Positions 27,099 to 64,000 of a stretch of 64,000 bases of DNA are shown here, one piece after another (position 1 is the stretch's first letter; every line of letters begins with the position of its first letter). Both the position numbers and the translations under genes were made by a program. This DNA is from Escherichia phage vB_EcoM-Ro111lw, in sequence record MH571750.1; one strand, written 5' to 3'. The notes beneath the pieces were generated by a model that was not told where the DNA came from, did not search any database, and was given only the letters and a program-made list of their open reading frames with translations.

Positions 27099-27270
27099 TT
27101 TTACTCCCTCTAAAATCATTAACCTCATACATTACTGCAAAAAATTATAAAAAGCAAGTTGACAATGTACTTGACAAGGTGTTAATCTTTGCGAAGTGGG
27201 TTTTTACTTAAAAGGTTACTTAACAGTTTAACTATACAGATACTTTAAAACTCTTAAAAGATTATTTAAT

Positions 27271-27312
27271 AGCTTTTAAAAAGCTTTAAAGTATAACGTA
27301 TAGAATACGTTA
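27271..27312. promoter_or_regulatory. Two palindromes (AGCTTTT-A-AAAAGCT and AACGTAT-AGA-ATACGTT) in the divergent intergenic region; candidate operators
   Basis: Perfect 7-1-7 and 7-3-7 inverted repeats 45-85 bp upstream of the 27356 start, in AT-rich region between divergent operons. Confidence 0.4.
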
Positions 27313-27355
27313 AGATAAAAGATTAAAACTTAATAGTTACTTAAAAGAGGCTTAC

Positions 27356-27778
27356 ATGCAGAAAATGTTTGTTCACCCAGACATAGCTGACTTTGTTAGA
27401 GCTTTGCAGAAGTTGGAAGAACTTGACATTGCTGCTCAACGGGAATATGCTCACCATCACAGGAGAATGGTTGATATACAACATGAAATAGAGTTGTCTG
27501 AAAACTATGAAGATGACTTAAAATGCTCTGTATTTGAGCATATGAAAGATGTTGCTACAGCGAGACGTAAAGCTAAAGACACAGTTGCTTTACTAGATTC
27601 TCTTAAAAAGAGGTTGCAAAGTGGTACAGACCTGTGTAATCTAGCGTCACTGATTAACGATGTTGAAACTTCTTGGGATAGGCACTATTATCCACGTTCT
27701 GAAAAGACACTTGACTTTTCTTCATCTGAAAACTTAAAATGTTCTAGAAAGAAACTTAACCAACTGAGAGAGAAATAA
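27356..27778 (+). CDS. Hypothetical protein
   Basis: 140 aa, RBS AAAGAGG, first gene of plus-strand operon. Confidence 0.55.
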   Translation: MQKMFVHPDIADFVRALQKLEELDIAAQREYAHHHRRMVDIQHEIELSENYEDDLKCSVFEHMKDVATARRKAKDTVALLDSLKKRLQSGTDLCNLASLINDVETSWDRHYYPRSEKTLDFSSSENLKCSRKKLNQLREK

Positions 27779-27779
27779 T

Positions 27780-36182: not shown

Positions 36183-38417
36183 ATGATTAAGACAATTAAA
36201 AAATCAAACGGTGCAGTAGTAAGCTTTGACCCAGAAAGACTTAATAAGTGGGCATCATGGGCAGATAAGCGTGGAATTATCTGGTCAGAAGTCACTATGG
36301 AAGCTATGAAGCGTGTCTATGAAGGTTGCACTACAAAAGAGATGCACCAAGCTATGATTGATGTTTGTGTTGATAAACAAACTCAAGAGTACTCAGACAT
36401 GGCTGGACGGCTACTTCTGGGTATTATCTACAAAGAAGCCTTTGGAGGCTTTACTAAGGTTCCTACGCTGGTTACCTTCGTTAAAAATATGGAGAGAGCA
36501 GGACTTTGGGAGAAGATGGATTATTCACAGGAAGAGCTTGAATATCTGCAAGGTTACATCGTACACTCAAAAGATATCTCTTACGGCTATGCAGTATTGA
36601 AACAGTTCAGAGACAAGTATGGTATCCGTGATATTAAAACTGGAAGACTTTTTGAGTCACCACAATTTATGTTTATGGGTATGGCTATGAAAGCCTTTGA
36701 GAAGCAACCAAAGCACCGTAGACTGCAAGATGTTATTAAGCTGTACACTTACCTATCTGACCTGAAGATTAATGCTCCTACACCTTATCTGAATGGTTTA
36801 CGTGCTACTAAGTCAGGTTATGCGTCATGCTGTTTGATTAAGGCAAATGATACTGCTGAGTCACTTGGTATTGCTGCAAAGGTTGCTTATGATATGACTA
36901 CGAAGCAAGCTGGTATTGGTATGCTGATGGAGACCCGTACTATTGGTGATGGTATCCGTCAAAACACTATCGAACACATGGGTAAACTACCTTATTACAA
37001 GCTTGTACGTTCATCTGTAGAGGCAAATAAACAGAAGAGTCGTGGTGGTTCAGCTAACAACTTCTACACCGCTCTAGACCCGCAGATTGAAGATTTACTA
37101 CGTTTGAAGCACCCTACAACGGTTCCTTCTAAACGTATTAACGAGATGGACTACTCATTTGGTACAAATGATTATTTCTGGCAGTGTGTTCAGTATGATA
37201 CAGATTGGTTGCTATTCTCTTACAAAGATGCACCAAAACTTTATGATATGTTCTACACCGCATCTGCTGATGAGTTTGCTATGGCAGTTGGTCACGCAGT
37301 ACATGCAGGTGTTAAGCACAGACGAGTAAAGGCTCGTGAAATTGCTAAACTGTTTATCCAGCAGCGTTATGCAACAGGTCGTGTGTACCCATTCTTCACA
37401 AACAATGCAAACACACATACACCATTTAAAGAGCCTTTGAAGATGTCAAATCTTTGCATGGAAATTGTGTTGCCAGTGTACGGCTTTGAGAAAGAGACAG
37501 ACCTTTACAGAGACGATGCTGTGAAGGAGGATGGTGAGGTAGCTCTTTGCTTCCTAGCTAGTTTGGTTGCAGGGAGAATTTCAGAAGATGAATACGCTGA
37601 CGTTGCTTATTATGCTCTTGCAATGGTTGACTCCGTTATTGACCTTATGGATTATCCGTATCCGTCGATGCGTAACCATGTTCAGAAGCGTCGCTCTGTT
37701 GGCATTGGCCTTACAAATGTGGCTCATTACCTTGCGAAGAACTACGTGAACTACTCTTCAAGGGCTGGTAAGACAAAGCTTCACGAACTTGCAGAGATGC
37801 ACTCTTACTATCTGCATGAAGCTTCTCTAAGACTTGCTAAAGAGCGTGGTGTACCTGAATACATGAAGTTCACTAAGTACCCTGAAGGATGGGTTCCTCC
37901 GAAGACAGCTAACAAGAAGATTGATGAGAAGCATGATGCAAAACTAAGATATGATTGGGATGACTTAGCACAACGTATCAAAGAAAATGGTGGCATCCGA
38001 AACTCTGTACTTGAGGCTTATATGCCTAATGAGAGTTCTTCACTGGCAACTAATACGACAAATGGCTTGTACCCAATTCGTGACTTTATTTTAACTAAAA
38101 AGTCTGCAACTGGTAACGTACTGTTTATTGTTCCAGATTATGAAGAGTTGAAGTATGTCTATGAAATTGCTTGGGATATTGACACCTTTGACCTGATTGA
38201 TTGTTATGCAATTGTCCAAAAGTTCACTGGTCAAGCTATCTCTTCAGATTTCTATGTTGACTACGCAAAAGCTAAGAAGGTATCATTGGCTCAAGCTTTA
38301 AAATACATGATTTACGCTAACTCGGTAGGTATGAAAACCATGTACTACCTTAACAGTCGCATCGGTGTAGGTAAGTCTGCACTGCAAGATGCCTATTGCG
38401 AGGGTTGTGGTGTTTAG
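36183..38417 (+). CDS. nrdA: Ribonucleotide reductase class Ia large subunit
   Basis: N-terminal ATP-cone; active-site block NLCMEIVLP; C-terminal CEGCGV redox tail; 744 aa. Confidence 0.9.
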   Translation: MIKTIKKSNGAVVSFDPERLNKWASWADKRGIIWSEVTMEAMKRVYEGCTTKEMHQAMIDVCVDKQTQEYSDMAGRLLLGIIYKEAFGGFTKVPTLVTFVKNMERAGLWEKMDYSQEELEYLQGYIVHSKDISYGYAVLKQFRDKYGIRDIKTGRLFESPQFMFMGMAMKAFEKQPKHRRLQDVIKLYTYLSDLKINAPTPYLNGLRATKSGYASCCLIKANDTAESLGIAAKVAYDMTTKQAGIGMLMETRTIGDGIRQNTIEHMGKLPYYKLVRSSVEANKQKSRGGSANNFYTALDPQIEDLLRLKHPTTVPSKRINEMDYSFGTNDYFWQCVQYDTDWLLFSYKDAPKLYDMFYTASADEFAMAVGHAVHAGVKHRRVKAREIAKLFIQQRYATGRVYPFFTNNANTHTPFKEPLKMSNLCMEIVLPVYGFEKETDLYRDDAVKEDGEVALCFLASLVAGRISEDEYADVAYYALAMVDSVIDLMDYPYPSMRNHVQKRRSVGIGLTNVAHYLAKNYVNYSSRAGKTKLHELAEMHSYYLHEASLRLAKERGVPEYMKFTKYPEGWVPPKTANKKIDEKHDAKLRYDWDDLAQRIKENGGIRNSVLEAYMPNESSSLATNTTNGLYPIRDFILTKKSATGNVLFIVPDYEELKYVYEIAWDIDTFDLIDCYAIVQKFTGQAISSDFYVDYAKAKKVSLAQALKYMIYANSVGMKTMYYLNSRIGVGKSALQDAYCEGCGV

Positions 38418-38472: not shown

Positions 38473-38730
38473 ATGAAAGATTTAATAGCAAACCATGAAT
38501 GGCCTATATACTTGCTCCACAAACCTCGAAAAACGCTGTACTATGTGAGTAGCACAGACATGATGATAAAACAAAATGATGACTCATGGGTCGATGGCGT
38601 CTCTTACATCTCTACAGCAGATGGTAAAATCTATGCAAGACCTTATGACATGTTTAATAAAGAAAATTGGGAAGTTTTAGACAGAAAACAAGCCTTAGAG
38701 ATGATAAAGAAAGGAGAAATCACATTATGA
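38473..38730 (+). CDS. Hypothetical protein between nrdA and nrdB (start moved to ATG after GGAGAG)
   Basis: Track start overlaps nrdA by 29 nt; internal ATG has an RBS. Confidence 0.45.
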   Translation: MKDLIANHEWPIYLLHKPRKTLYYVSSTDMMIKQNDDSWVDGVSYISTADGKIYARPYDMFNKENWEVLDRKQALEMIKKGEITL

Positions 38731-39800
38731 TTAACCAACACCCAATCTTTTTAGGTGGTGAGAGAAAGACATTTGACTCACTTAACAAGCACTACCCAAA
38801 AATCTTTGAGCTATATAAACAACAAAAAGCGCAAGACTGGTCAGAAGATGAGTTCCCTTTTGAACAATCACGTCTTGATTTTGAGAGTGTGCCAGCATCA
38901 ATGTCAGGTGTAATGCTTGAGATTCTTAAGTGGCAGTGGGAAGCAGATACCCAAGTTGCTAAGAGTTTAGCGTTTGCTTTTGCACCATTCATCTCTGATG
39001 ACATTTATGCAACTGCAATTATGAAGCAGTCTGAGATTGAAAACTTACATGCTCTGACTTACTCAGAGATTGTAAGGCAATGTATTAAAAACCCTGAAAC
39101 AATCTTAGATGAGATTAACCAGAATGTTGCTGTACAAGACCGATTAAAAACTGTGAATCGTGTTCTTGAAGAATTACTGGATGAAGGTATAAACTATCGG
39201 CTGAGCTATGTTCGTGACTCACTTCTGGACAAAGACCCTTTACACTTCCATAAAGTGATTCTGAAAGGGTTGTTTGCAGTGACTGCACTTGAAGGTATAT
39301 CTTTTATGGCATCCTTTGCATGTACTTTTGCACTTGATGCTCAAGATAAATTTCAGGGTATTGCTCAAGCTGTCCAGAAAATTATGCTTGATGAAATCCT
39401 TCACACTAAAATTGATATTGAAGTTTTAAAAGAAACTTTAAGAGATGATGAGTGGCAGAAAGCTTTTCAACAAATTCTTCCAGAGATTAAAGTAATCTTA
39501 GATGAAGTAGTTGAAAGTGAAGAGAAATGGTCGTATTATATCTTCTCCGAAGGACGTGCTGTAGTTGGCTTAAATACAAAGCTTCTTCATGAGTGGGTTT
39601 ACTATAATGCTGCCCCATTGTATGATATGTTTGGCATTCCCAGAGATTTTGTAGCTCCTAAAGAACCACCTTTGAAGTACATGATTAAGAAGATGGAAAT
39701 TGATAAAGAGCAGAATGCTAATCAGGAGCAACAGAACGGTGCGTACCTGTTGAATACTGTTGTAGATGATTTGAATAGTGGATTTTTAGAGGTTCCTTAA
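38727..39800 (+). CDS. nrdB: Ribonucleotide reductase class Ia small subunit (start set to MINQHPIF ATG)
   Basis: Di-iron/tyrosyl-radical R2-like helices; AAGGAG RBS 7 nt before ATG; follows nrdA. Confidence 0.85.
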   Translation: MINQHPIFLGGERKTFDSLNKHYPKIFELYKQQKAQDWSEDEFPFEQSRLDFESVPASMSGVMLEILKWQWEADTQVAKSLAFAFAPFISDDIYATAIMKQSEIENLHALTYSEIVRQCIKNPETILDEINQNVAVQDRLKTVNRVLEELLDEGINYRLSYVRDSLLDKDPLHFHKVILKGLFAVTALEGISFMASFACTFALDAQDKFQGIAQAVQKIMLDEILHTKIDIEVLKETLRDDEWQKAFQQILPEIKVILDEVVESEEKWSYYIFSEGRAVVGLNTKLLHEWVYYNAAPLYDMFGIPRDFVAPKEPPLKYMIKKMEIDKEQNANQEQQNGAYLLNTVVDDLNSGFLEVP

Positions 39801-40289: not shown

Positions 40290-42434
40290 ATGAACAAAGT
40301 ACAGATTATTAAAAAGAATGGCTCACTTGAAGAACCTGATATCAAAAAAGTTTTAGCGGCAGTAACAAAGTCAGCTAACAGGGTTGGATATAAAGAACTT
40401 CCACCAGATGTTACCCAAGCTCTTGAGTCAGCATTTATGAGGATTCTGGTAAAGTCCACTAAGCAGAATAATTTGCTCATTTCAGTAAATGATATTCACA
40501 GTATTGTTGAGGGTGCTTTGGCAGAAGCCAATCACGAGATTTATGAGTCTTACTCAACATATAGAAATTATCGTAAAGAGGTTGCTCAAAATTGGGATGA
40601 GCTTTACCAAAAGACTAGAGACACACTCTTCTTAGGTGACCGTGAAAATGCTAACTTTGACAGCAGTTTAATTTCTACAAAAGGTTCAATTATTCGTGGT
40701 TACCTGACTAAAGAAATCTTTAAACAGTACCATTTAACACCAGAGGAACTTGAAGCCATTGAAAAAGGGTTTATCTACATCCATGACTTAAGAGACCTGA
40801 TTTTTGGTGGTATCAACTGTTGCCTGTTTGACATTGGTAAAGTGCTGAAGGGTGGCTTTGAAATGTCTGGCATCGAATACTGTGAACCAAAGTCTGTGCT
40901 GTCAGCCTTACAGGTTATCGGTGATGTAGTTCTTTCAGCAACTGCACAGCAATTTGGTGGCTTTACTTTAGCAGAGATTGATAAGGTGCTTGTACCGTAT
41001 GCTAAGAAGTCTCTACGTTATCATGCTGAGAAAGCAGCATCTTACGGTATTCCTAAAGAACATTACCATAATTATGTCATGGAGCAGCTACAGATTGAAT
41101 TAACTCAAGGTTTCCAGTCACTTGAAATGAAGCTAAACACTGTACCTTGCAGCCGTGGTGATTTCGCATTCACAACTTTAACATTTGGTTTACTTGACTC
41201 AGATATGACTAATGAAGACAACCGATTACAATACATGATTGCAAGTACTCTCCTAGATGTTCGTATGAATGGACAAGGGAAGAGCAAGAAGCCTGTTGTA
41301 TTTCCTAAACTGGTTTATATTTATGACCAGAAGAGACACGATGAGAATATCTGTCAAGGACACCTGTACAGTAAAGCCATTGAGTGTTGCTCTAAAGCAA
41401 TGTATCCAGATTTCTTAAGTGTATCTGGTCATGGTGCTGTAGCAGAGGCTTTTGAGCGTTCTGGTAAGGTTATTTCACCGATGGGTTGTAGAGCCTTCTT
41501 ATCTCCATATTTTAACGAGAATGGAGAAGAGTTCTATGTTGGTCGTGCTAATATTGGTGCTGTATCTTTGAACTTACCAATGATTTATCAGTACGCCAAA
41601 GAGGATGGTTTAGATTTCTGGAAAGAGCTTGATAAGTACCTAGAGATGATTCGCAGCTTCCACAAGAAACGCTACGAAATGATTGCTAATATGCCAGCAA
41701 GTTCTAACCCTCTTGCATTCACACAAGGTGGTCTGTACAAAGGAACTAAGAAACCTACTGACAAGGTTGGTTGGGATATTGTGAAGTCCTTCACAGCTTC
41801 TTTTGGGGTTACTGCGCTTGATGAGCTATCTGTTCTTGCTGAAGGTAAACGACTTCATGAAGTTGGAAGCTGTAGTTTTGCATACGATGTTCTGGCATAC
41901 ATCAACATGAAAACTGAAGAGTTTAAAAATGAAGATGGCTTCTTATATGCCGTCTATGGTACTCCAGCAGAATCACTTTGCGGAACTCAGCTAAAACAGT
42001 TCAGAGATATGTTTGGCGTTATCAAAGGTGTTTCTGATAAGGAATACTTTACAAACAGTTTCCATATGAATGTTGCAGCAGACATCTCACCATTTGAGAA
42101 GCAGGACTTAGAAGAGCCATTCTTCCATATCTGTAGAGGTGGGAGAATCCAGTATGTCAGGGTAGCTAACCCAGAAAACTTAACAGCACTTAAAAGTTGT
42201 ATCACAAGAGGGATGTTGAAAGGTTTCTATCAGGGGCTTAACTTTGACTTAGCAATCTGTGAACATTGTGGTAACAGACCAAAGGCTGATGTTGAAGAAT
42301 GCGAGGTTTGCCATTCACATGATATCTCTGTGATTAACAGGGTGTGTGGGTATCTTGGATGGACTAAGATTAAAGGTGAATCCCGAATGAACGATGCAAA
42401 AATCGCTGAGATTCGTGATAGAGTATCTATGTAA
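40290..42434 (+). CDS. nrdD: Anaerobic ribonucleoside-triphosphate reductase (class III)
   Basis: N-terminal ATP-cone, C-terminal glycyl-radical motif RVCGYLG preceded by a Cys-rich zinc site (CEHCG...CEVC); 714 aa. Confidence 0.85.
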   Translation: MNKVQIIKKNGSLEEPDIKKVLAAVTKSANRVGYKELPPDVTQALESAFMRILVKSTKQNNLLISVNDIHSIVEGALAEANHEIYESYSTYRNYRKEVAQNWDELYQKTRDTLFLGDRENANFDSSLISTKGSIIRGYLTKEIFKQYHLTPEELEAIEKGFIYIHDLRDLIFGGINCCLFDIGKVLKGGFEMSGIEYCEPKSVLSALQVIGDVVLSATAQQFGGFTLAEIDKVLVPYAKKSLRYHAEKAASYGIPKEHYHNYVMEQLQIELTQGFQSLEMKLNTVPCSRGDFAFTTLTFGLLDSDMTNEDNRLQYMIASTLLDVRMNGQGKSKKPVVFPKLVYIYDQKRHDENICQGHLYSKAIECCSKAMYPDFLSVSGHGAVAEAFERSGKVISPMGCRAFLSPYFNENGEEFYVGRANIGAVSLNLPMIYQYAKEDGLDFWKELDKYLEMIRSFHKKRYEMIANMPASSNPLAFTQGGLYKGTKKPTDKVGWDIVKSFTASFGVTALDELSVLAEGKRLHEVGSCSFAYDVLAYINMKTEEFKNEDGFLYAVYGTPAESLCGTQLKQFRDMFGVIKGVSDKEYFTNSFHMNVAADISPFEKQDLEEPFFHICRGGRIQYVRVANPENLTALKSCITRGMLKGFYQGLNFDLAICEHCGNRPKADVEECEVCHSHDISVINRVCGYLGWTKIKGESRMNDAKIAEIRDRVSM

Positions 42435-43240: not shown

Positions 43241-43726
43241 ATGAATTACATGGAGATTAGGCCATTTGACACAGCTAATGGTGAAGGGGTTCGTGTAAGC
43301 CTCTTCGTAGCTGGTTGTAAGCATCACTGCGAAGGCTGCTTTAACAGGGAGTCTTGGAAGTTTAATGCTGGTAAAGTATTTACTTATGCAAACCTCTACG
43401 GAATCATCCAGCTAATGGGTGATAATGCTGTCAGTGGTTTGTCAATACTTGGTGGAGAACCTCTGGATGATAGAAATATTCAAGAGGTTACCAACATATG
43501 CAAACGTATTAAAACTGTTTATCCAGAGAAGTCTATCTGGCTCTGGACAGGTTTTCAACTGCACGAAAAAATCCACTTAGATGTGATGAAATATGTTGAC
43601 GTGGTGATTGATGGTAAGTATGATGCTTCTAAACCAACGAATAAACCATATCGTGGTTCAGACAACCAAAACTTGTGGAGAAAAGAATATGGCTGGCAAG
43701 GTGACTGTCAATGGAGAGCAGAGTAG
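43241..43726 (+). CDS. nrdG: Anaerobic RNR activating enzyme (radical SAM)
   Basis: CKHHCEGC = CxxxCxxC radical-SAM cluster motif near N-terminus; 161 aa; downstream of nrdD. Confidence 0.8.
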   Translation: MNYMEIRPFDTANGEGVRVSLFVAGCKHHCEGCFNRESWKFNAGKVFTYANLYGIIQLMGDNAVSGLSILGGEPLDDRNIQEVTNICKRIKTVYPEKSIWLWTGFQLHEKIHLDVMKYVDVVIDGKYDASKPTNKPYRGSDNQNLWRKEYGWQGDCQWRAE

Positions 43727-62933: not shown

Positions 62934-62985
62934 GGGGCTAAATAGCCCCAGATACCTTTACAGCCCCTTAAATGGGGCTTTTTTA
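62934..62985 (+). terminator. Tandem hairpins ending in a rho-independent terminator
   Basis: GGGGCT-aaat-AGCCCC then AGCCCC-ttaaat-GGGGCT followed by TTTTTT. Confidence 0.6.
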
Positions 62986-63129
62986 CGTCTATCGAATCCT
63001 TATACAATCCCTTTCCCTTTCCTTTCTAGAATCTTATCAGACCTTAAAAAGCAATAACTCTATAGTCTACTCTATAACCTCTTATCAAATCAACTTAAAT
63101 ATAAGCCAATAACCCCAGAAAGGGGATGG

Positions 63130-63560
63130 CCCATTAAAACGCTCTATAAAGCTCTATAACAGCCTTATCAACCTAACTTAAGCAATCATATTAACCCACT
63201 CTAAAAAGCCCTTTATAGAGCTTCCCAGAGCCTTAAAAGAATCTTATAAGGGTGAAAGCTTATAGGCTGGCTAGTATCTTGTGAATAACTAAACAATCCC
63301 CTTGATAGTCACTAAAAAGCATGTTATAGGGGCTATAAAGTTACTTCAAAGTAACGTAAAAAAGGCTATAAAGTTACGTAAATGCTAGCCCCCTTAACAT
63401 TTTCTTAACAATTTCTTAACAAACCCTACATAGTTATGCTTTTAAGGCACTTGTTAGAGACTTGTTAGCCCCTTGTTAAATCTCTGTTAAGACCACGTAA
63501 AAGCCTTGTAAGAGTCTTTGGCATAGCCTTTAAAGCTCCTATAAAGCCCTATAAAGAGGT
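63130..63560. repeat. (G)CTATAAAG repeat family and palindromes in ORF-free region
   Basis: GCTCTATAAAGCTCTATAAC, inverted CTTTATAGAGC, GGCTATAAAGTTAC twice, CCTATAAAG twice; palindrome GTTACTTCAAAGTAAC and TTACGTAA. Confidence 0.6.
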
Positions 63561-64000
63561 GTCTGTATAGTTGGGGTGTAGATACTAGGAAGAGGTTTAA
63601 AAGAGCTTACAAGGAGCTATAGAGAGCTTTTAAGAGGTATGTTTAAGAGTTCACTAAGAAAGGAAAGGGAACGATAAGGAAGAGATAGTGACCATGTTAA
63701 TAGCTTGTTAAAAAGATTAAACACTTGTTAGAAACTTGTTAATTATCTAATTGGTATTGTTACCAATCCCTAACAAAATAACTCTTTAAAATTAACTTGT
63801 TAGCTCTTGTTAGTCATCTGTTAAGCCTCTGTAAAGACTATTCAGCACTTGTTAGAAAACTGTTAAGCCCTTGTTAGTTCTGTTAAGAAACTGTTAAGAC
63901 CTTTGAAGAGTTGTTAAGAAGATGTGAGAACTGTTAAGAGATTGTTAAGGATATTTTAAAATTTTGCAAAGTACTTGTAAGGGAGCTGTTAAGGGCTACC
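63404..64000. repeat. Array of about 20-25 CTTGTTAG / CTGTTAAG octamer repeats, many phased at 10-12 bp; continues to window end
   Basis: Direct copies at about 63450, 63461, 63472, 63484, 63705, 63724, 63735, 63796, 63806, 63818, 63848, 63860, 63870, 63880, 63891, 63910, 63931, 63942, 63986, plus inverted TTAACAA copies at 63404-63423; no ORF of 60 aa or more on either strand. Confidence 0.7.

What the first reader, a model, noticed from the sequence alone, without database searches (positions are those of the whole stretch)
63404..64000. ORF-free terminal kilobase with a helically phased array of CTTGTTAG/CTGTTAAG octamers
After the last terminator (about 62985) there is no ORF of 60 aa or more on either strand up to the window end, which is rare in a phage this gene-dense. 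The stretch holds about 20-25 copies of an 8-mer (consensus CT(T)GTTA(A/G)). In the densest part (63848-63891) successive copies start 12, 10, 10 and 11 bp apart, about one helical turn, so the sites would lie on one face of the DNA. That geometry is typical of iteron-type origins, partition-site-like centromeres, or packaging/terminase recognition arrays. The array is cut by the window edge and may be larger.
Basis: seen in the sequence. Interest (0 to 1): 0.8.

Follow-up and report, generated by a model that had tools for sequence, protein, structure and literature searches.

The report
Phased repeat array filling phage terminal repeat
The flagged stretch is the 613-bp repeat at the physical end of a Felix O1-type phage genome, filled from edge to edge with about 25 TGTTA sites on one face of the DNA helix; they most likely mark where the packaging enzyme cuts, and they look like binding sites for the host oxygen-response regulator ArcA.

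Summary
YTGTTAR occurs 19 times on the + strand in 63388-64000, against 0.8 expected. Three inverted copies and three TGTAA variants bring the total to about 25. All lie on a 10.45-bp lattice (R=0.83).

The window is a Felixounavirus, and the region is its right-hand direct terminal repeat (DTR). Its boundaries (GCCCCCTTAACA... to ...GGGCTACC) match the published termini of three relatives, and base 64000 is the genome end rather than an arbitrary cut.

The dense array fills the DTR edge to edge and is sparse outside it. TGTTA cores are 94% conserved across genera, against 71% for the rest of the DTR. DTR lengths in the family differ by about 10-11 or 22 bp.

Best reading (about 0.5): a cooperative protein-binding lattice marks the concatemer junction so that terminase cuts at both DTR edges. 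The binding protein is unidentified, and no small terminase subunit is known in this family.

Unexpected lead (about 0.2): core and spacing equal the E. coli ArcA-P direct repeat. An ArcA matrix places the six best sites of the 64 kb in the DTR. Flanks fit no better than random, and arcA was not a Felix O1 host-factor hit.

An iteron origin is less likely. The DTR is known; the array appears undescribed.

The parts
62934..62979 (+). Two G+C-rich stem-loops (GGGGCTAAATAGCCCC; AGCCCCTTAAATGGGGCT followed by a T-run). They form the intrinsic terminator that closes the rightward gene block.
   Evidence: (terminator scan). Conserved in all relatives.
62985..63387 (.). Right-unique non-coding DNA between the terminator and the DTR. 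It holds a second, looser repeat family (CTCTATAA, CTATAAAG, CTTAAAAG) and one DnaA-box-like TTATTCACA at 63280-63288 on the - strand. It has almost no TGTTA sites.
   Evidence: About 74% identical across genera.
63388..64000 (.). Right-hand copy of the 613-bp direct terminal repeat. The left boundary is TGCTA|GCCCCCTTAACA and the right end is ...GTTAAGGGCTACC, which is the physical genome end.
   Evidence: Alignment to the annotated 581-bp DTR of Pr103Blw. E9 has the same boundaries and identical copies at both record ends. Published DTRs: 613 bp in Ro111lw, 581 bp in Pr103Blw, 608 bp in UAB_Phi87 by Bal31 and run-off sequencing.
63393..63422 (-). Three inverted copies (CTTAACA x3) at exactly 11-bp spacing, starting 6 bp from the left terminus. 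On the - strand they read TTGTTAAGAAATTGTTAAGAAAATGTTAAG.
   Evidence: They score 22.5 and 22.7 bits with the ArcA-box matrix, the two best sites in the 64 kb. Near-invariant across genera, one base substitution in SUSP1 and Sf19.
63450..63513 (+). Left direct cluster of six consecutive 11-bp units: TGTTA x4, then CGTAA, then TGTAA.
   Evidence: The number of units varies by 11 or 22 bp between relatives.
63514..63687 (.). Central DTR segment without TGTTA sites. It holds degenerate CTnTAAAG/TTTAAGAG units of about 10 bp and a purine-rich tract (63657-63686).
   Evidence: Less conserved, 54-76% across genera apart from one block at 93% (63570-63589).
63688..63742 (+). Invariant GTGACCATGTTAAT followed by a middle cluster of four TGTTA sites (63695, 63706, 63726, 63737).
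63749..63770 (+). A 22-bp palindromic mini-insertion, AATTGGTATTGTTACCAATCCC. It is absent here in Pr103Blw, Felix O1 and garuso, and present at other positions in other relatives. Its length (two helical turns) preserves the phase.
63796..63993 (+). Right cluster: 14 TGTTA/TGTAA sites plus degenerate units (TGTGA, TTTGA, TTTTA) that fill about 19 consecutive helical turns up to 8 bp from the right terminus.
   Evidence: Part of it (63889-63971) is the only stretch still detectable by blastn in Erwinia phages.
63949..63972 (.). Conserved AT-rich palindromic block, GGATATTTTAAAATTTTGCAAAGT, inside the right cluster.
   Evidence: nearly invariant. Retained in phiEa21-4 as GATTTTGCAAAG.

Best explanation
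Positions 63388-64000 are the right-hand copy of the short exact direct terminal repeat (DTR) of a Felix O1-like myovirus. The window is probably vB_EcoM-Ro111lw, or a phage nearly identical to it. In the replicating concatemer one DTR copy sits in the middle of a ~1.65-kb non-coding region with no strong promoter match, bounded by convergent terminators, between the two outward-reading gene blocks.

The DTR is filled edge to edge by about 25 YTGTTAR sites. They form modules of 2-6 sites at 11-bp spacing. The modules are re-phased by 20-bp and 9-10-bp steps, so that all sites stay on one face of B-DNA (10.45 bp per turn) over about 51 turns.

Inferred mechanism: a DNA-binding protein binds these sites cooperatively and coats or wraps the whole DTR. 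This nucleoprotein complex marks the concatemer junction. It positions the large terminase to cut at its two edges (between 63387 and 63388, and after 64000). The DTR is then duplicated during packaging, as in T7-type phages. At both physical ends, the first sites met on reading inwards are in the same TTAACA orientation, 6-8 bp from the end. That fits one recognition geometry used at both edges.

Shown: the DTR identity and boundaries, the array statistics, the phasing and the conservation. Inferred: protein binding and the link to terminase cutting. The binding protein is unknown. It could be an unrecognised phage specificity subunit, since no small terminase subunit is known in this family, or a host factor.
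For: Identity of the phage: 255-283 Ounavirinae records match the region.

Boundaries: the window ends at the same base as the Pr103Blw record, and the annotated 581-bp DTR start maps to 63388. E9, from another laboratory, has the same boundaries and identical copies at both ends.

Published termini: PhageTerm gave a 613-bp DTR in Ro111lw (86,950 bp), which equals the length mapped here (PMC6454146). It gave 581 bp in Pr103Blw (PMC8303462). Bal31 digestion and run-off sequencing gave 608 bp in UAB_Phi87 (PMC4837284), where the boundary motifs lie 614 bp apart.

Array: 19 forward copies against 0.8 expected. Lattice R=0.68-0.86 at 10.40-10.45 bp in nine phages of three genera, with p<=0.003.

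Selection: TGTTA cores are 94% conserved across genera against 71% for the rest of the DTR (permutation p<0.0002). The DTR is 75% identical across genera, against 63-73% for the two adjacent genes. DTR lengths are 569/570, 580/581, 590/591 and 612-614 bp, so they differ by about one or two helical turns.

Co-extension with the DTR: 14-18 matrix hits lie inside the DTR, against 0-2 before it and 1-6 after it. Boundary sequences are invariant, and AAGCAGATATACA just outside the right edge is kept even in Erwinia phage phiEa21-4.

Other readings fail: convergent terminators flank the region, and no strong promoter, RNA family or ORF lies within it.
Against: No binding or packaging experiment exists for this array. 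No small terminase subunit or other candidate binder was found. The proteins upstream of TerL, and the genes next to the DTR on both sides, have no recognisable DNA-binding domain (PMC4837284).

A recognition site needs far fewer than 25 copies, so the size of the array is not explained by cutting alone. Looser TGTTA copies also occur in the left-unique DNA outside the DTR. The similarity between the two boundaries (GCTA|GCCCCC against GCTACC|AAGC; TAGCCC..TTAACA in inverted orientation) is short and could be chance. PhageTerm on an Erwinia relative suggested headful packaging (PMC6256631).
Confidence: 0.5

Rival explanations
1. The array is a giant binding site for the host response regulator ArcA-P (OmpR/PhoB family). 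ArcA-P would coat the DTR when the host is micro-aerobic or anaerobic. It could act as an architectural host factor for end processing, as IHF does at lambda cos. It could act as a redox sensor for the phage. Or the replicating phage DNA could act as a sponge that titrates ArcA-P away from the host respiratory regulon.
For: The ArcA-P direct-repeat element has the conserved core 5'-TGTTA-3' at 11-bp (or 22-bp) centre-to-centre spacing. Natural sites hold 2-5 elements, binding is cooperative, and TGTAA and TGTGA variants are used (PMC3798270, PMC4173790).

A matrix built from 115 of the 128 published ArcA boxes reproduces the published scores. With it, the six best sites in the 64 kb all fall in the DTR. 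There are 15 hits of at least 9.6 bits in 613 bp (24.5 per kb against 1.0 per kb elsewhere). The terminal inverted triple scores 22.5-22.7 bits, above every box used to build the matrix.

All 20 forward elements score above 0 bits. The TGTTA motif is unchanged in the distant Erwinia phage phiEa21-4, although the second repeat family changed. That is expected for a conserved host factor.

No ArcA-like protein is encoded by the phage (phmmer E>2). The phages carry both aerobic and anaerobic ribonucleotide reductases. arcB mutants of Salmonella resist Felix O1 (PMC8744999).
Against: The match rests on the core and the spacing alone. Non-core positions fit the ArcA logo no better than random phage sequence (mean -1.85 against -2.72 bits, z=0.8). 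Seven of 21 sites carry G after TGTTA, which is seen in only 3 of 115 ArcA boxes. Double spacings are mostly 20 bp rather than 22 bp.

arcA is in the transposon library but appears only in the sheet for phage Br60, while arcB appears in two sheets. The main text lists arcB among the genes shared by Felix O1 and the T5-like phage Aji_GE and attributes many of these shared hits to RpoS. Felix O1 also grows well aerobically, when ArcA-P is low. Unrelated viral contigs carry TGTTAA arrays at 11-bp spacing in origin-like settings, so the motif is not unique to ArcA.
Confidence: 0.2
2. The array is an iteron-type replication origin. A phage initiator would bind the phased repeats and melt a neighbouring AT-rich element.
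For: Phased direct repeats are the hallmark of iteron origins. In relatives a conserved AT-rich block (CTATTTTATAAAAATTTTAAAATTC) lies 70-110 bp beyond the right DTR edge. DnaA-box-like TTATTCACA occurs at 63280-63288 and again in the left-unique DNA. An unrelated viral contig has CTGTTAA repeats at 11-bp spacing next to a DnaA box (L058).
Against: The site lies where two transcription blocks converge, between terminators, not at a divergence. The array's limits coincide with the packaging termini, which an origin would not require. No initiator was found. The primase-helicase is of the Toprim plus DnaB type with no recognisable DNA-binding domain, and the adjacent genes have no recognisable domains. 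The divergent AT-rich, palindrome-rich intergenic region beside the DNA polymerase (27129-27779) is at least as good a candidate. GC skew follows transcription and is uninformative.
Confidence: 0.15
3. The repeats are by-products of replication slippage or unequal recombination in dispensable non-coding DNA, or a partition centromere, with no role in packaging.
For: Copy number varies by whole units between relatives. Small hairpin insertions are tolerated.
Against: Cores are conserved far above the spacers across three genera, and the motif persists in a fourth. Long-range helical phase is maintained in every phage tested of three genera. Indels are restricted to about one or two turns. No ParA/ParB is annotated in this lytic phage.
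Confidence: 0.05

Closest known systems
Short exact direct terminal repeats of T7/SP6-type phages (class iii of Casjens and Gilcrease), and the published DTRs of Felixounavirus (Ro111lw 613 bp, Pr103Blw 581 bp, UAB_Phi87 608 bp)
   Same: Non-permuted linear genome with a repeat of a few hundred bp at both ends. Terminase cuts at both repeat boundaries of a concatemer. The boundaries here are identical to those of the published relatives.
   Different: None of the Felix O1-group papers read here describes an internal repeat array. From my own knowledge, T7 has short repeat arrays flanking its 160-bp repeat. It does not have a repeat filled edge to edge by a single phased motif.
Terminase recognition arrays: P1 pac (seven TGATCA/G hexamers flanking the cut), lambda cosB (R1-R3 plus an IHF site), SPP1 pacL/pacR boxes (own knowledge of these systems)
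   Same: Several short oligomer repeats next to the terminase cleavage site, some in inverted orientation. They are thought to assemble a multimeric specificity complex and to bend the DNA. In lambda a host factor (IHF) takes part.
   Different: Those sites have 3-7 elements within 100-200 bp around one cut, and a known small terminase subunit. Here about 25 elements span 600 bp between two cuts, with strict long-range phasing and no identified small subunit.
ArcA-P multi-repeat binding sites of E. coli (Park et al. 2013; Park and Kiley 2014)
   Same: TGTTA core, 11-bp spacing, direct orientation, use of TGTAA/TGTGA variants, and high matrix scores.
   Different: Chromosomal sites have 2-5 repeats with A/T-rich spacers and overlap promoters. 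The phage array has about 25 repeats, G/C-containing spacers, its own flank preference (C upstream, G downstream) and no promoter.
Untranslated repeat region of the T5 left terminal repeat (injection stop signal), with eight conserved DnaA boxes (Davison preprint, 10.1101/866236)
   Same: A conserved, untranslated, repeat-rich block inside a phage terminal repeat, proposed to bind a host DNA-binding protein.
   Different: The T5 repeat is about 10 kb and contains genes. The boxes there are DnaA boxes, and the proposed role is arrest of DNA injection. Nothing suggests two-step injection in Felix O1-type phages.
P4 ori/crr octamer iterons (TGTTCACC) bound by the alpha primase-helicase (own knowledge)
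   Same: Arrays of 8-bp iterons with a TGTT core in a phage replicon.
   Different: P4 alpha carries a C-terminal iteron-binding domain. The primase-helicase here is of the T7 gp4 type with no such domain detected. The site is also a packaging terminus.

Membership tests
Felixounavirus short direct terminal repeat | Sequence homologous to, and bounded like, the repeat found at both ends of related genome records | tested here: met
   Window 63388-64000 aligns end to end with the annotated DTR of Pr103Blw and stops at the same last base. The E9 and Pr103Blw copies at both record ends are identical. The boundary words are invariant in nine phages.
Felixounavirus short direct terminal repeat | The same sequence is present at the left end of this very genome | not testable with these tools
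   The window covers only the last 64 kb of a genome of about 87 kb (offset about 22.8 kb against E9). The probable source record, MH571750, is not in the collection.
Felixounavirus short direct terminal repeat | Fixed, non-permuted physical termini shown on virion DNA | not testable with these tools
   No reads are available. The literature gives PhageTerm results for Ro111lw (613 bp), Pr103Blw (581 bp) and the Philippine isolates including E9 (DTRs and a linear genome; the 580-bp length is measured from the E9 record), and Bal31 plus run-off sequencing for UAB_Phi87 (608 bp).
Terminase recognition (pac/cos-type) array | Short repeated elements adjacent to the cleavage sites | tested here: met
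   The first site starts 6 bp inside the left cut, and the last ends 8 bp before the right end. The array is dense only between the two cuts.
Terminase recognition (pac/cos-type) array | Bound by a small terminase or specificity subunit | not testable with these tools
   No small subunit is annotated or detectable next to TerL. The literature states that only TerL is known.
Terminase recognition (pac/cos-type) array | Required in cis for packaging | not testable with these tools
   Needs a plasmid-transduction or mutational assay.
ArcA-P binding site | Direct repeats with a 5'-TGTTA-3' core | tested here: met
   There are 21 forward TGTTA matches in the DTR, one of them inside the 22-bp insertion, plus 3 TGTAA variants and 3 inverted copies. 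The definition is from PMC4173790.
ArcA-P binding site | 11-bp (or 22-bp) centre-to-centre spacing | tested here: met
   12 of 24 spacings are 11 bp. Caveat: the double steps are mostly 20-21 bp rather than 22 bp, and one step each of 9 and 10 bp occurs.
ArcA-P binding site | Score within the range of genuine ArcA boxes using a matrix from ChIP-seq sites | tested here: met
   15 hits score at least 9.6 bits (the training minimum) and 8 score at least 15 bits. Two score 22.5-22.7 bits, above the training maximum of 21.5.
ArcA-P binding site | A/T-rich spacer and flanks of the ArcA logo, with A or C (not G) after TGTTA | tested here: not met
   The non-core score averages -1.85 bits against -2.72 for random 18-mers (z=0.8). 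Seven of 21 sites have G after TGTTA. Only the terminal inverted triple fits (+5.5 to +5.8 bits).
ArcA-P binding site | Occupied by phosphorylated ArcA, and dependent on arcA | not testable with these tools
   Indirect evidence only. arcB mutants resist Felix O1, but arcA appears only in the sheet for another phage (Br60), not among the Felix O1 hits.
Iteron-type replication origin | Phased direct repeats next to an AT-rich unwinding element and/or DnaA boxes | tested here: inconclusive
   The repeats are present. The AT-rich block lies 70-110 bp beyond the DTR and is seen only in relatives. There is one TTATTCACA at 63280-63288, which is not above chance.
Iteron-type replication origin | A recognisable initiator protein encoded nearby or in the replication module | tested here: not met
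   The adjacent genes have no recognisable domains. The primase-helicase has only Toprim and DnaB_C domains.
Partition centromere (parS-like) | Cognate ParA/ParB genes | tested here: not met
   None is annotated in the full genome of relative E9. The phage is strictly lytic.

The most novel reading that the evidence does not exclude
The terminal repeat of Felix O1-type phages is the largest natural array of ArcA-P boxes known, with about 25 phased TGTTA repeats per copy and two copies per virion genome. A strictly lytic phage would thus recruit a host redox-sensing response regulator to its genome ends. The recruited protein could serve as the missing DNA-recognition partner of a terminase that lacks a small subunit. 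Alternatively, the replicating phage DNA could soak up ArcA-P and release the host's respiratory genes from repression in the gut.
Probability: 0.2. Interest if true: 0.8.

Novelty: new variant of a known kind. Interest (0 to 1): 0.55.

Why it matters
Felix O1-type phages are widely used for Salmonella and E. coli diagnostics, biocontrol and therapy. How they recognise and cut their genome ends is unknown, and no small terminase subunit has been found.

A terminal repeat whose limits coincide with a phased protein-binding lattice of about 51 helical turns gives a concrete, testable model: the edges of a nucleoprotein filament define where the repeat is cut. It also gives a defined cis element for engineering or transduction vectors.

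If the binding protein is host ArcA, phage genome processing would be linked to the host's oxygen and redox state, which is relevant in the gut. It would also be a new case of a phage using a two-component regulator as an architectural factor or as a target of titration.

Tried and rejected
- **Hidden gene:** rejected. Only ORFs of 46 and 35 aa are present, and indels of 11 and 22 bp separate relatives.
- **Structured RNA:** Rfam at E<=1 on the homologous terminal regions of relative Pr103Blw gave only a sub-threshold Phe-leader match over a terminator.
- **Promoter array:** only weak matches (9 of 12) within the DTR, several of them just TTAACA read as a -35 element.
- **Phage-encoded ArcA/OmpR-type binder:** phmmer --max with E. 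coli ArcA and its DNA-binding domain against 905 translated frames of the window plus the first 45 kb of relative E9 gave nothing below E=2.
- **Binder encoded next to the site:** Pfam and PHROGs on seven genes to the right of the DTR, three to the left, and the ORFs upstream of TerL gave only families of unknown function.
- **ArcA dependence from genetics:** arcB is a Felix O1 resistance hit but arcA is not, and the authors explain many of the shared non-receptor hits through RpoS.
- **Scan of viral contigs for three TGTTAA at 11-bp spacing:** it returned Ounavirinae plus unrelated iteron or tandem arrays. The pattern selects for such arrays, so the scan does not discriminate between a host and a phage binder.
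- **GC skew as an origin marker:** it follows transcription direction only.
- **Fetching the probable source record MH571750:** not in the collection.
Full report
**1. The observation**

The sequence after the terminator at 62962-62979 has no ORF of 60 aa or more on either strand; the longest are 46 and 35 aa. In 63388-64000 the heptamer YTGTTAR occurs 19 times on the + strand and 3 times inverted. In 1000 dinucleotide-preserving shuffles it occurs 0.81 +/- 0.86 times, with a maximum of 4. No other 613-bp window of the 64 kb holds more than 3 copies. CTTGTTAG and CTGTTAAG occur 7 times each here, and 1 and 3 times in the remaining 63 kb.

Aligned on the TGTTA core, 12 of the 24 successive spacings are exactly 11 bp, and most of the others are 20-22 bp.

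All 23 forward sites, spread over 535 bp and across a 188-bp gap, fit one lattice of 10.45 bp (vector strength R=0.83). For the right cluster alone R=0.90, with p=0.0002 against random spacings.

**2. What the region is**

The last 1.1 kb matches 255 phage records, all in the Felix O1 group (Ounavirinae); the best is vB_EcoM-Pr103Blw at 91.7%. That record annotates a 581-bp "short direct terminal repeat" at both ends.

In a three-way alignment the window ends at exactly the same base as the record (...GTTAAGGGCTACC). The left edge of the annotated repeat (GCCCCCTTAACA...) maps to window position 63388. This gives a 613-bp repeat in the window.

That figure equals the published 613-bp DTR of vB_EcoM-Ro111lw, a genome of 86,950 bp (PMC6454146). 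The window's offset of about 22.8 kb against relative E9 fits a genome of that size. The window is therefore most probably the last 64 kb of that phage or a near-identical one. The record itself is not in the collection.

The same boundaries were found independently in three other phages:
- Pr103Blw, by PhageTerm (PMC8303462).
- E9, by PhageTerm in another laboratory. The record starts GCCCCCTTAACA, ends GGGCTACC, and the two 580-bp copies are identical (PMC11737134).
- UAB_Phi87, by experiment. Bal31 digestion and run-off sequencing gave a 608-bp DTR (PMC4837284), and the boundary words lie 614 bp apart in its record.

The original Felix O1 genome paper only inferred short terminal repeats, and it does not mention these octamers (PMC3185647). 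Base 64000 is therefore the physical right end of the genome, not an arbitrary cut.

**3. Setting**

In relatives whose records run through the junction, the DTR lies in the middle of about 1.65 kb of non-coding DNA. This region is bounded by the terminator of the rightward gene block and, on the other side, by a terminator of the leftward block. It lies between convergent transcription units. It has no strong promoter match, no Rfam match and no conserved ORF.

Inside the DTR the layout, from left to right, is:
- three inverted copies at 11-bp spacing, starting 6 bp from the left end (63393-63422);
- six direct 11-bp units (63450-63513);
- a less conserved centre with degenerate CTnTAAAG-like units and a purine tract;
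- four sites at 63695-63737;
- a 22-bp palindromic insertion (63749-63770);
- about 19 consecutive helical turns of sites, up to 8 bp from the right end (63796-63993).

**4. Evidence of function**

I compared nine phages from three genera (Felixounavirus, Mooglevirus, Suspvirus).
- In the cross-genus comparison (four Mooglevirus and Suspvirus phages), TGTTA cores are 94% conserved, against 71% for the rest of the DTR (permutation p<0.0002).
- The DTR as a whole is 75% identical to Moogle and SUSP1. The two adjacent protein-coding genes are 63-73% identical.
- The 10.40-10.45-bp lattice is found in every one of these phages (R=0.68-0.86, p<=0.003).
- Indels between relatives are whole units of 11 or 22 bp.
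- DTR lengths fall into classes of 569/570, 580/581, 590/591 and 612-614 bp. Length changes therefore preserve the helical phase.
- The Erwinia phage phiEa21-4 belongs to a fourth genus, and blastn detects only 74 bp of similarity. It keeps a TGTTAAG array at 11-bp spacing and the AAGCAGATATACA word outside the right boundary. Its upstream repeat family is different (TTCTAAR instead of CTATAAAG).
- The dense array coincides with the DTR. Matrix hits number 14-18 inside it, 0-2 in the ~460-520 bp before it, and 1-6 in the ~600-670 bp after it. The outside copies are not on the lattice.

**5. Most likely mechanism**

Sites on one DNA face over about 51 turns, grouped in modules of 2-6 at 11-bp spacing and re-phased by 20-bp and 9-10-bp steps, indicate cooperative binding of a protein along or around the DNA.

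Three facts link the array to end formation. Its limits are the packaging termini. The boundary sequences are invariant. And reading inwards from either physical end gives the same arrangement: GCCCCC-TTAACA-N5-TTAACA at the left end, and GGTAGCCC-TTAACA-N6-TTACAA on the bottom strand at the right end.

I therefore infer that the resulting nucleoprotein complex marks the concatemer junction and positions terminase to cut at its two edges, after which the repeat is duplicated as in T7-type phages. This last step rests on established knowledge of short-DTR phages and is not shown here. The short similarity between the two cut sites (GCTA|GC and GCTACC|) is noted but could be chance.

The binding protein is not identified:
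- Only TerL is known in the family.
- The ORFs upstream of TerL are a DUF7217 protein and a 66-aa protein of unknown function.
- The genes flanking the DTR have no recognisable domain.

**6. The ArcA lead**

The core and spacing are those of the E. coli ArcA-P direct-repeat element. That element has 5'-TGTTA-3' as its most conserved part and 11-bp or 22-bp spacing. Natural sites hold 2-5 elements and bind ArcA-P cooperatively, and TGTAA and TGTGA are accepted variants (PMC3798270, PMC4173790).

I built an 18-bp matrix from 115 of the 128 published ArcA boxes. It reproduces the published information scores. Results of scanning the window:
- The six best sites in the 64 kb are all in the DTR.
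- Fifteen sites reach the score of the weakest box used to build the matrix (24.5 per kb against 1.0 per kb elsewhere).
- The terminal inverted triple scores 22.5-22.7 bits, above any box used to build the matrix.
- All 20 forward sites score above 0 bits as single elements.

Points against the ArcA reading:
- The positions outside the core fit the ArcA logo no better than random (z=0.8).
- Seven of 21 sites have G after TGTTA, which is rare in ArcA boxes.
- The double steps are 20 bp rather than 22 bp.
- In a Salmonella transposon screen arcB mutants resist Felix O1, but arcA is not among the curated hits. The arcB effect is shared with a T5-like phage, and the authors attribute many of these shared hits to RpoS (PMC8744999).

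The phage encodes no detectable ArcA homologue. ArcA is thus a candidate binder at about 0.2, not a demonstrated one, and it cannot be essential under aerobic laboratory conditions.

**7. Other readings**

An iteron origin is possible but less likely:
- The location is convergent rather than divergent.
- The array's limits match the termini.
- No initiator was found, and the primase-helicase is of the T7 gp4 type.
- The AT-rich, palindrome-rich divergent region beside the DNA polymerase (27129-27779) is an alternative candidate.
- In its favour are an AT-rich conserved block 70-110 bp beyond the DTR in relatives, and two DnaA-box-like words.

A centromere and neutral slippage repeats are not supported.

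**8. Comparison with what is known, and novelty**

The DTR itself is known for this genus. Repeated elements next to terminase cuts are also known: P1 pac hexamers, lambda cosB and SPP1 pac (own knowledge). So are conserved repeat blocks in terminal repeats that may bind host proteins, such as the T5 DnaA boxes (preprint 10.1101/866236).

What appears undescribed in the literature I could search is a terminal repeat filled edge to edge by a single phased motif of about 25 copies, with quantised length variation and the architecture of ArcA boxes. I rate it a new variant of a known kind, with interest 0.55.

Noticed in passing
window 63749-63770; also L013 1374-1393, 1842-1861, 1891-1910; L006 1924-1943; L003 4850-4869; L018 1192-1211; L012 58-77 (- strand): A 22-bp palindromic mini-insertion (AATTGGTATTGTTACCAATCCC) sits at different positions, and in either orientation, in the terminal non-coding region of different relatives. 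Silverhawkium has three copies. The window has only one copy in its 64 kb. It looks like a tiny mobile hairpin element confined to this region.
   Followed up: partly
L010 1097-1118; L011 965-986; variants in L009 and L013 (alignment): A second family of hairpin insertions of about 22-24 bp (GAGATAGRACTCTATCGAATCC) occurs in Suspvirus and Mooglevirus phages, once inside a terminator loop. It has the same hairpin plus AATCC-tail design as the first family. The window has no full copy, only TCTATCGAATCC at about 62988.
   Followed up: partly
window 63280-63288 (- strand); L004 about 1117-1125: DnaA-box-like TTATTCACA lies inside the cross-genus conserved word CTTGTGAATA in the right-unique DNA. 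A second copy lies in the left-unique DNA of relatives. There are only two matches in the whole window, so this is not above chance.
   Followed up: partly
L004 650-690 (left-unique DNA of relative Pr103Blw, 70-110 bp beyond the right DTR boundary): A conserved AT-rich block (CTATTTTATAAAAATTTTAAAATTCTGAATAAT), preceded by TTGACA. It could be a DNA-unwinding element or an outward-reading promoter with no gene downstream on that strand.
   Followed up: no
L008 1650-2060 (phiEa21-4): The Erwinia relative carries about 14 copies of a different short repeat (TTCTAAR) upstream of its TGTTAAG array, where Felixounavirus has CTATAAAG/CTCTATAA units. One repeat family changed between genera while TGTTA did not.
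   Followed up: partly
window 27129-27779: A divergent, AT-rich intergenic region between the DNA polymerase (- strand) and the + strand replication genes. It has CTTAAAAG/CTTTAAAG palindromes, including a 27-nt inverted repeat at 27240-27294. It is a plausible alternative origin or promoter hub.
   Followed up: partly
L058 3440-3520; L031 6700-7050; L074 12650-12950 (unrelated IMG/VR contigs): Other, unrelated viral contigs carry (C/G)TGTTAA iterons at 11-bp spacing. One lies next to a DnaA box (TGTGGATAA), and two have facing direct and inverted arrays. This suggests a recurrent type of iteron.
   Followed up: no
window 40290-42434 and 43241-43726; 36183-38417 and 38667-39800: The phage encodes both anaerobic (NrdD/NrdG-like) and aerobic (NrdA/NrdB-like) ribonucleotide reductases, by synteny with the annotated genome of relative E9. 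This fits growth in hosts with and without oxygen.
   Followed up: no
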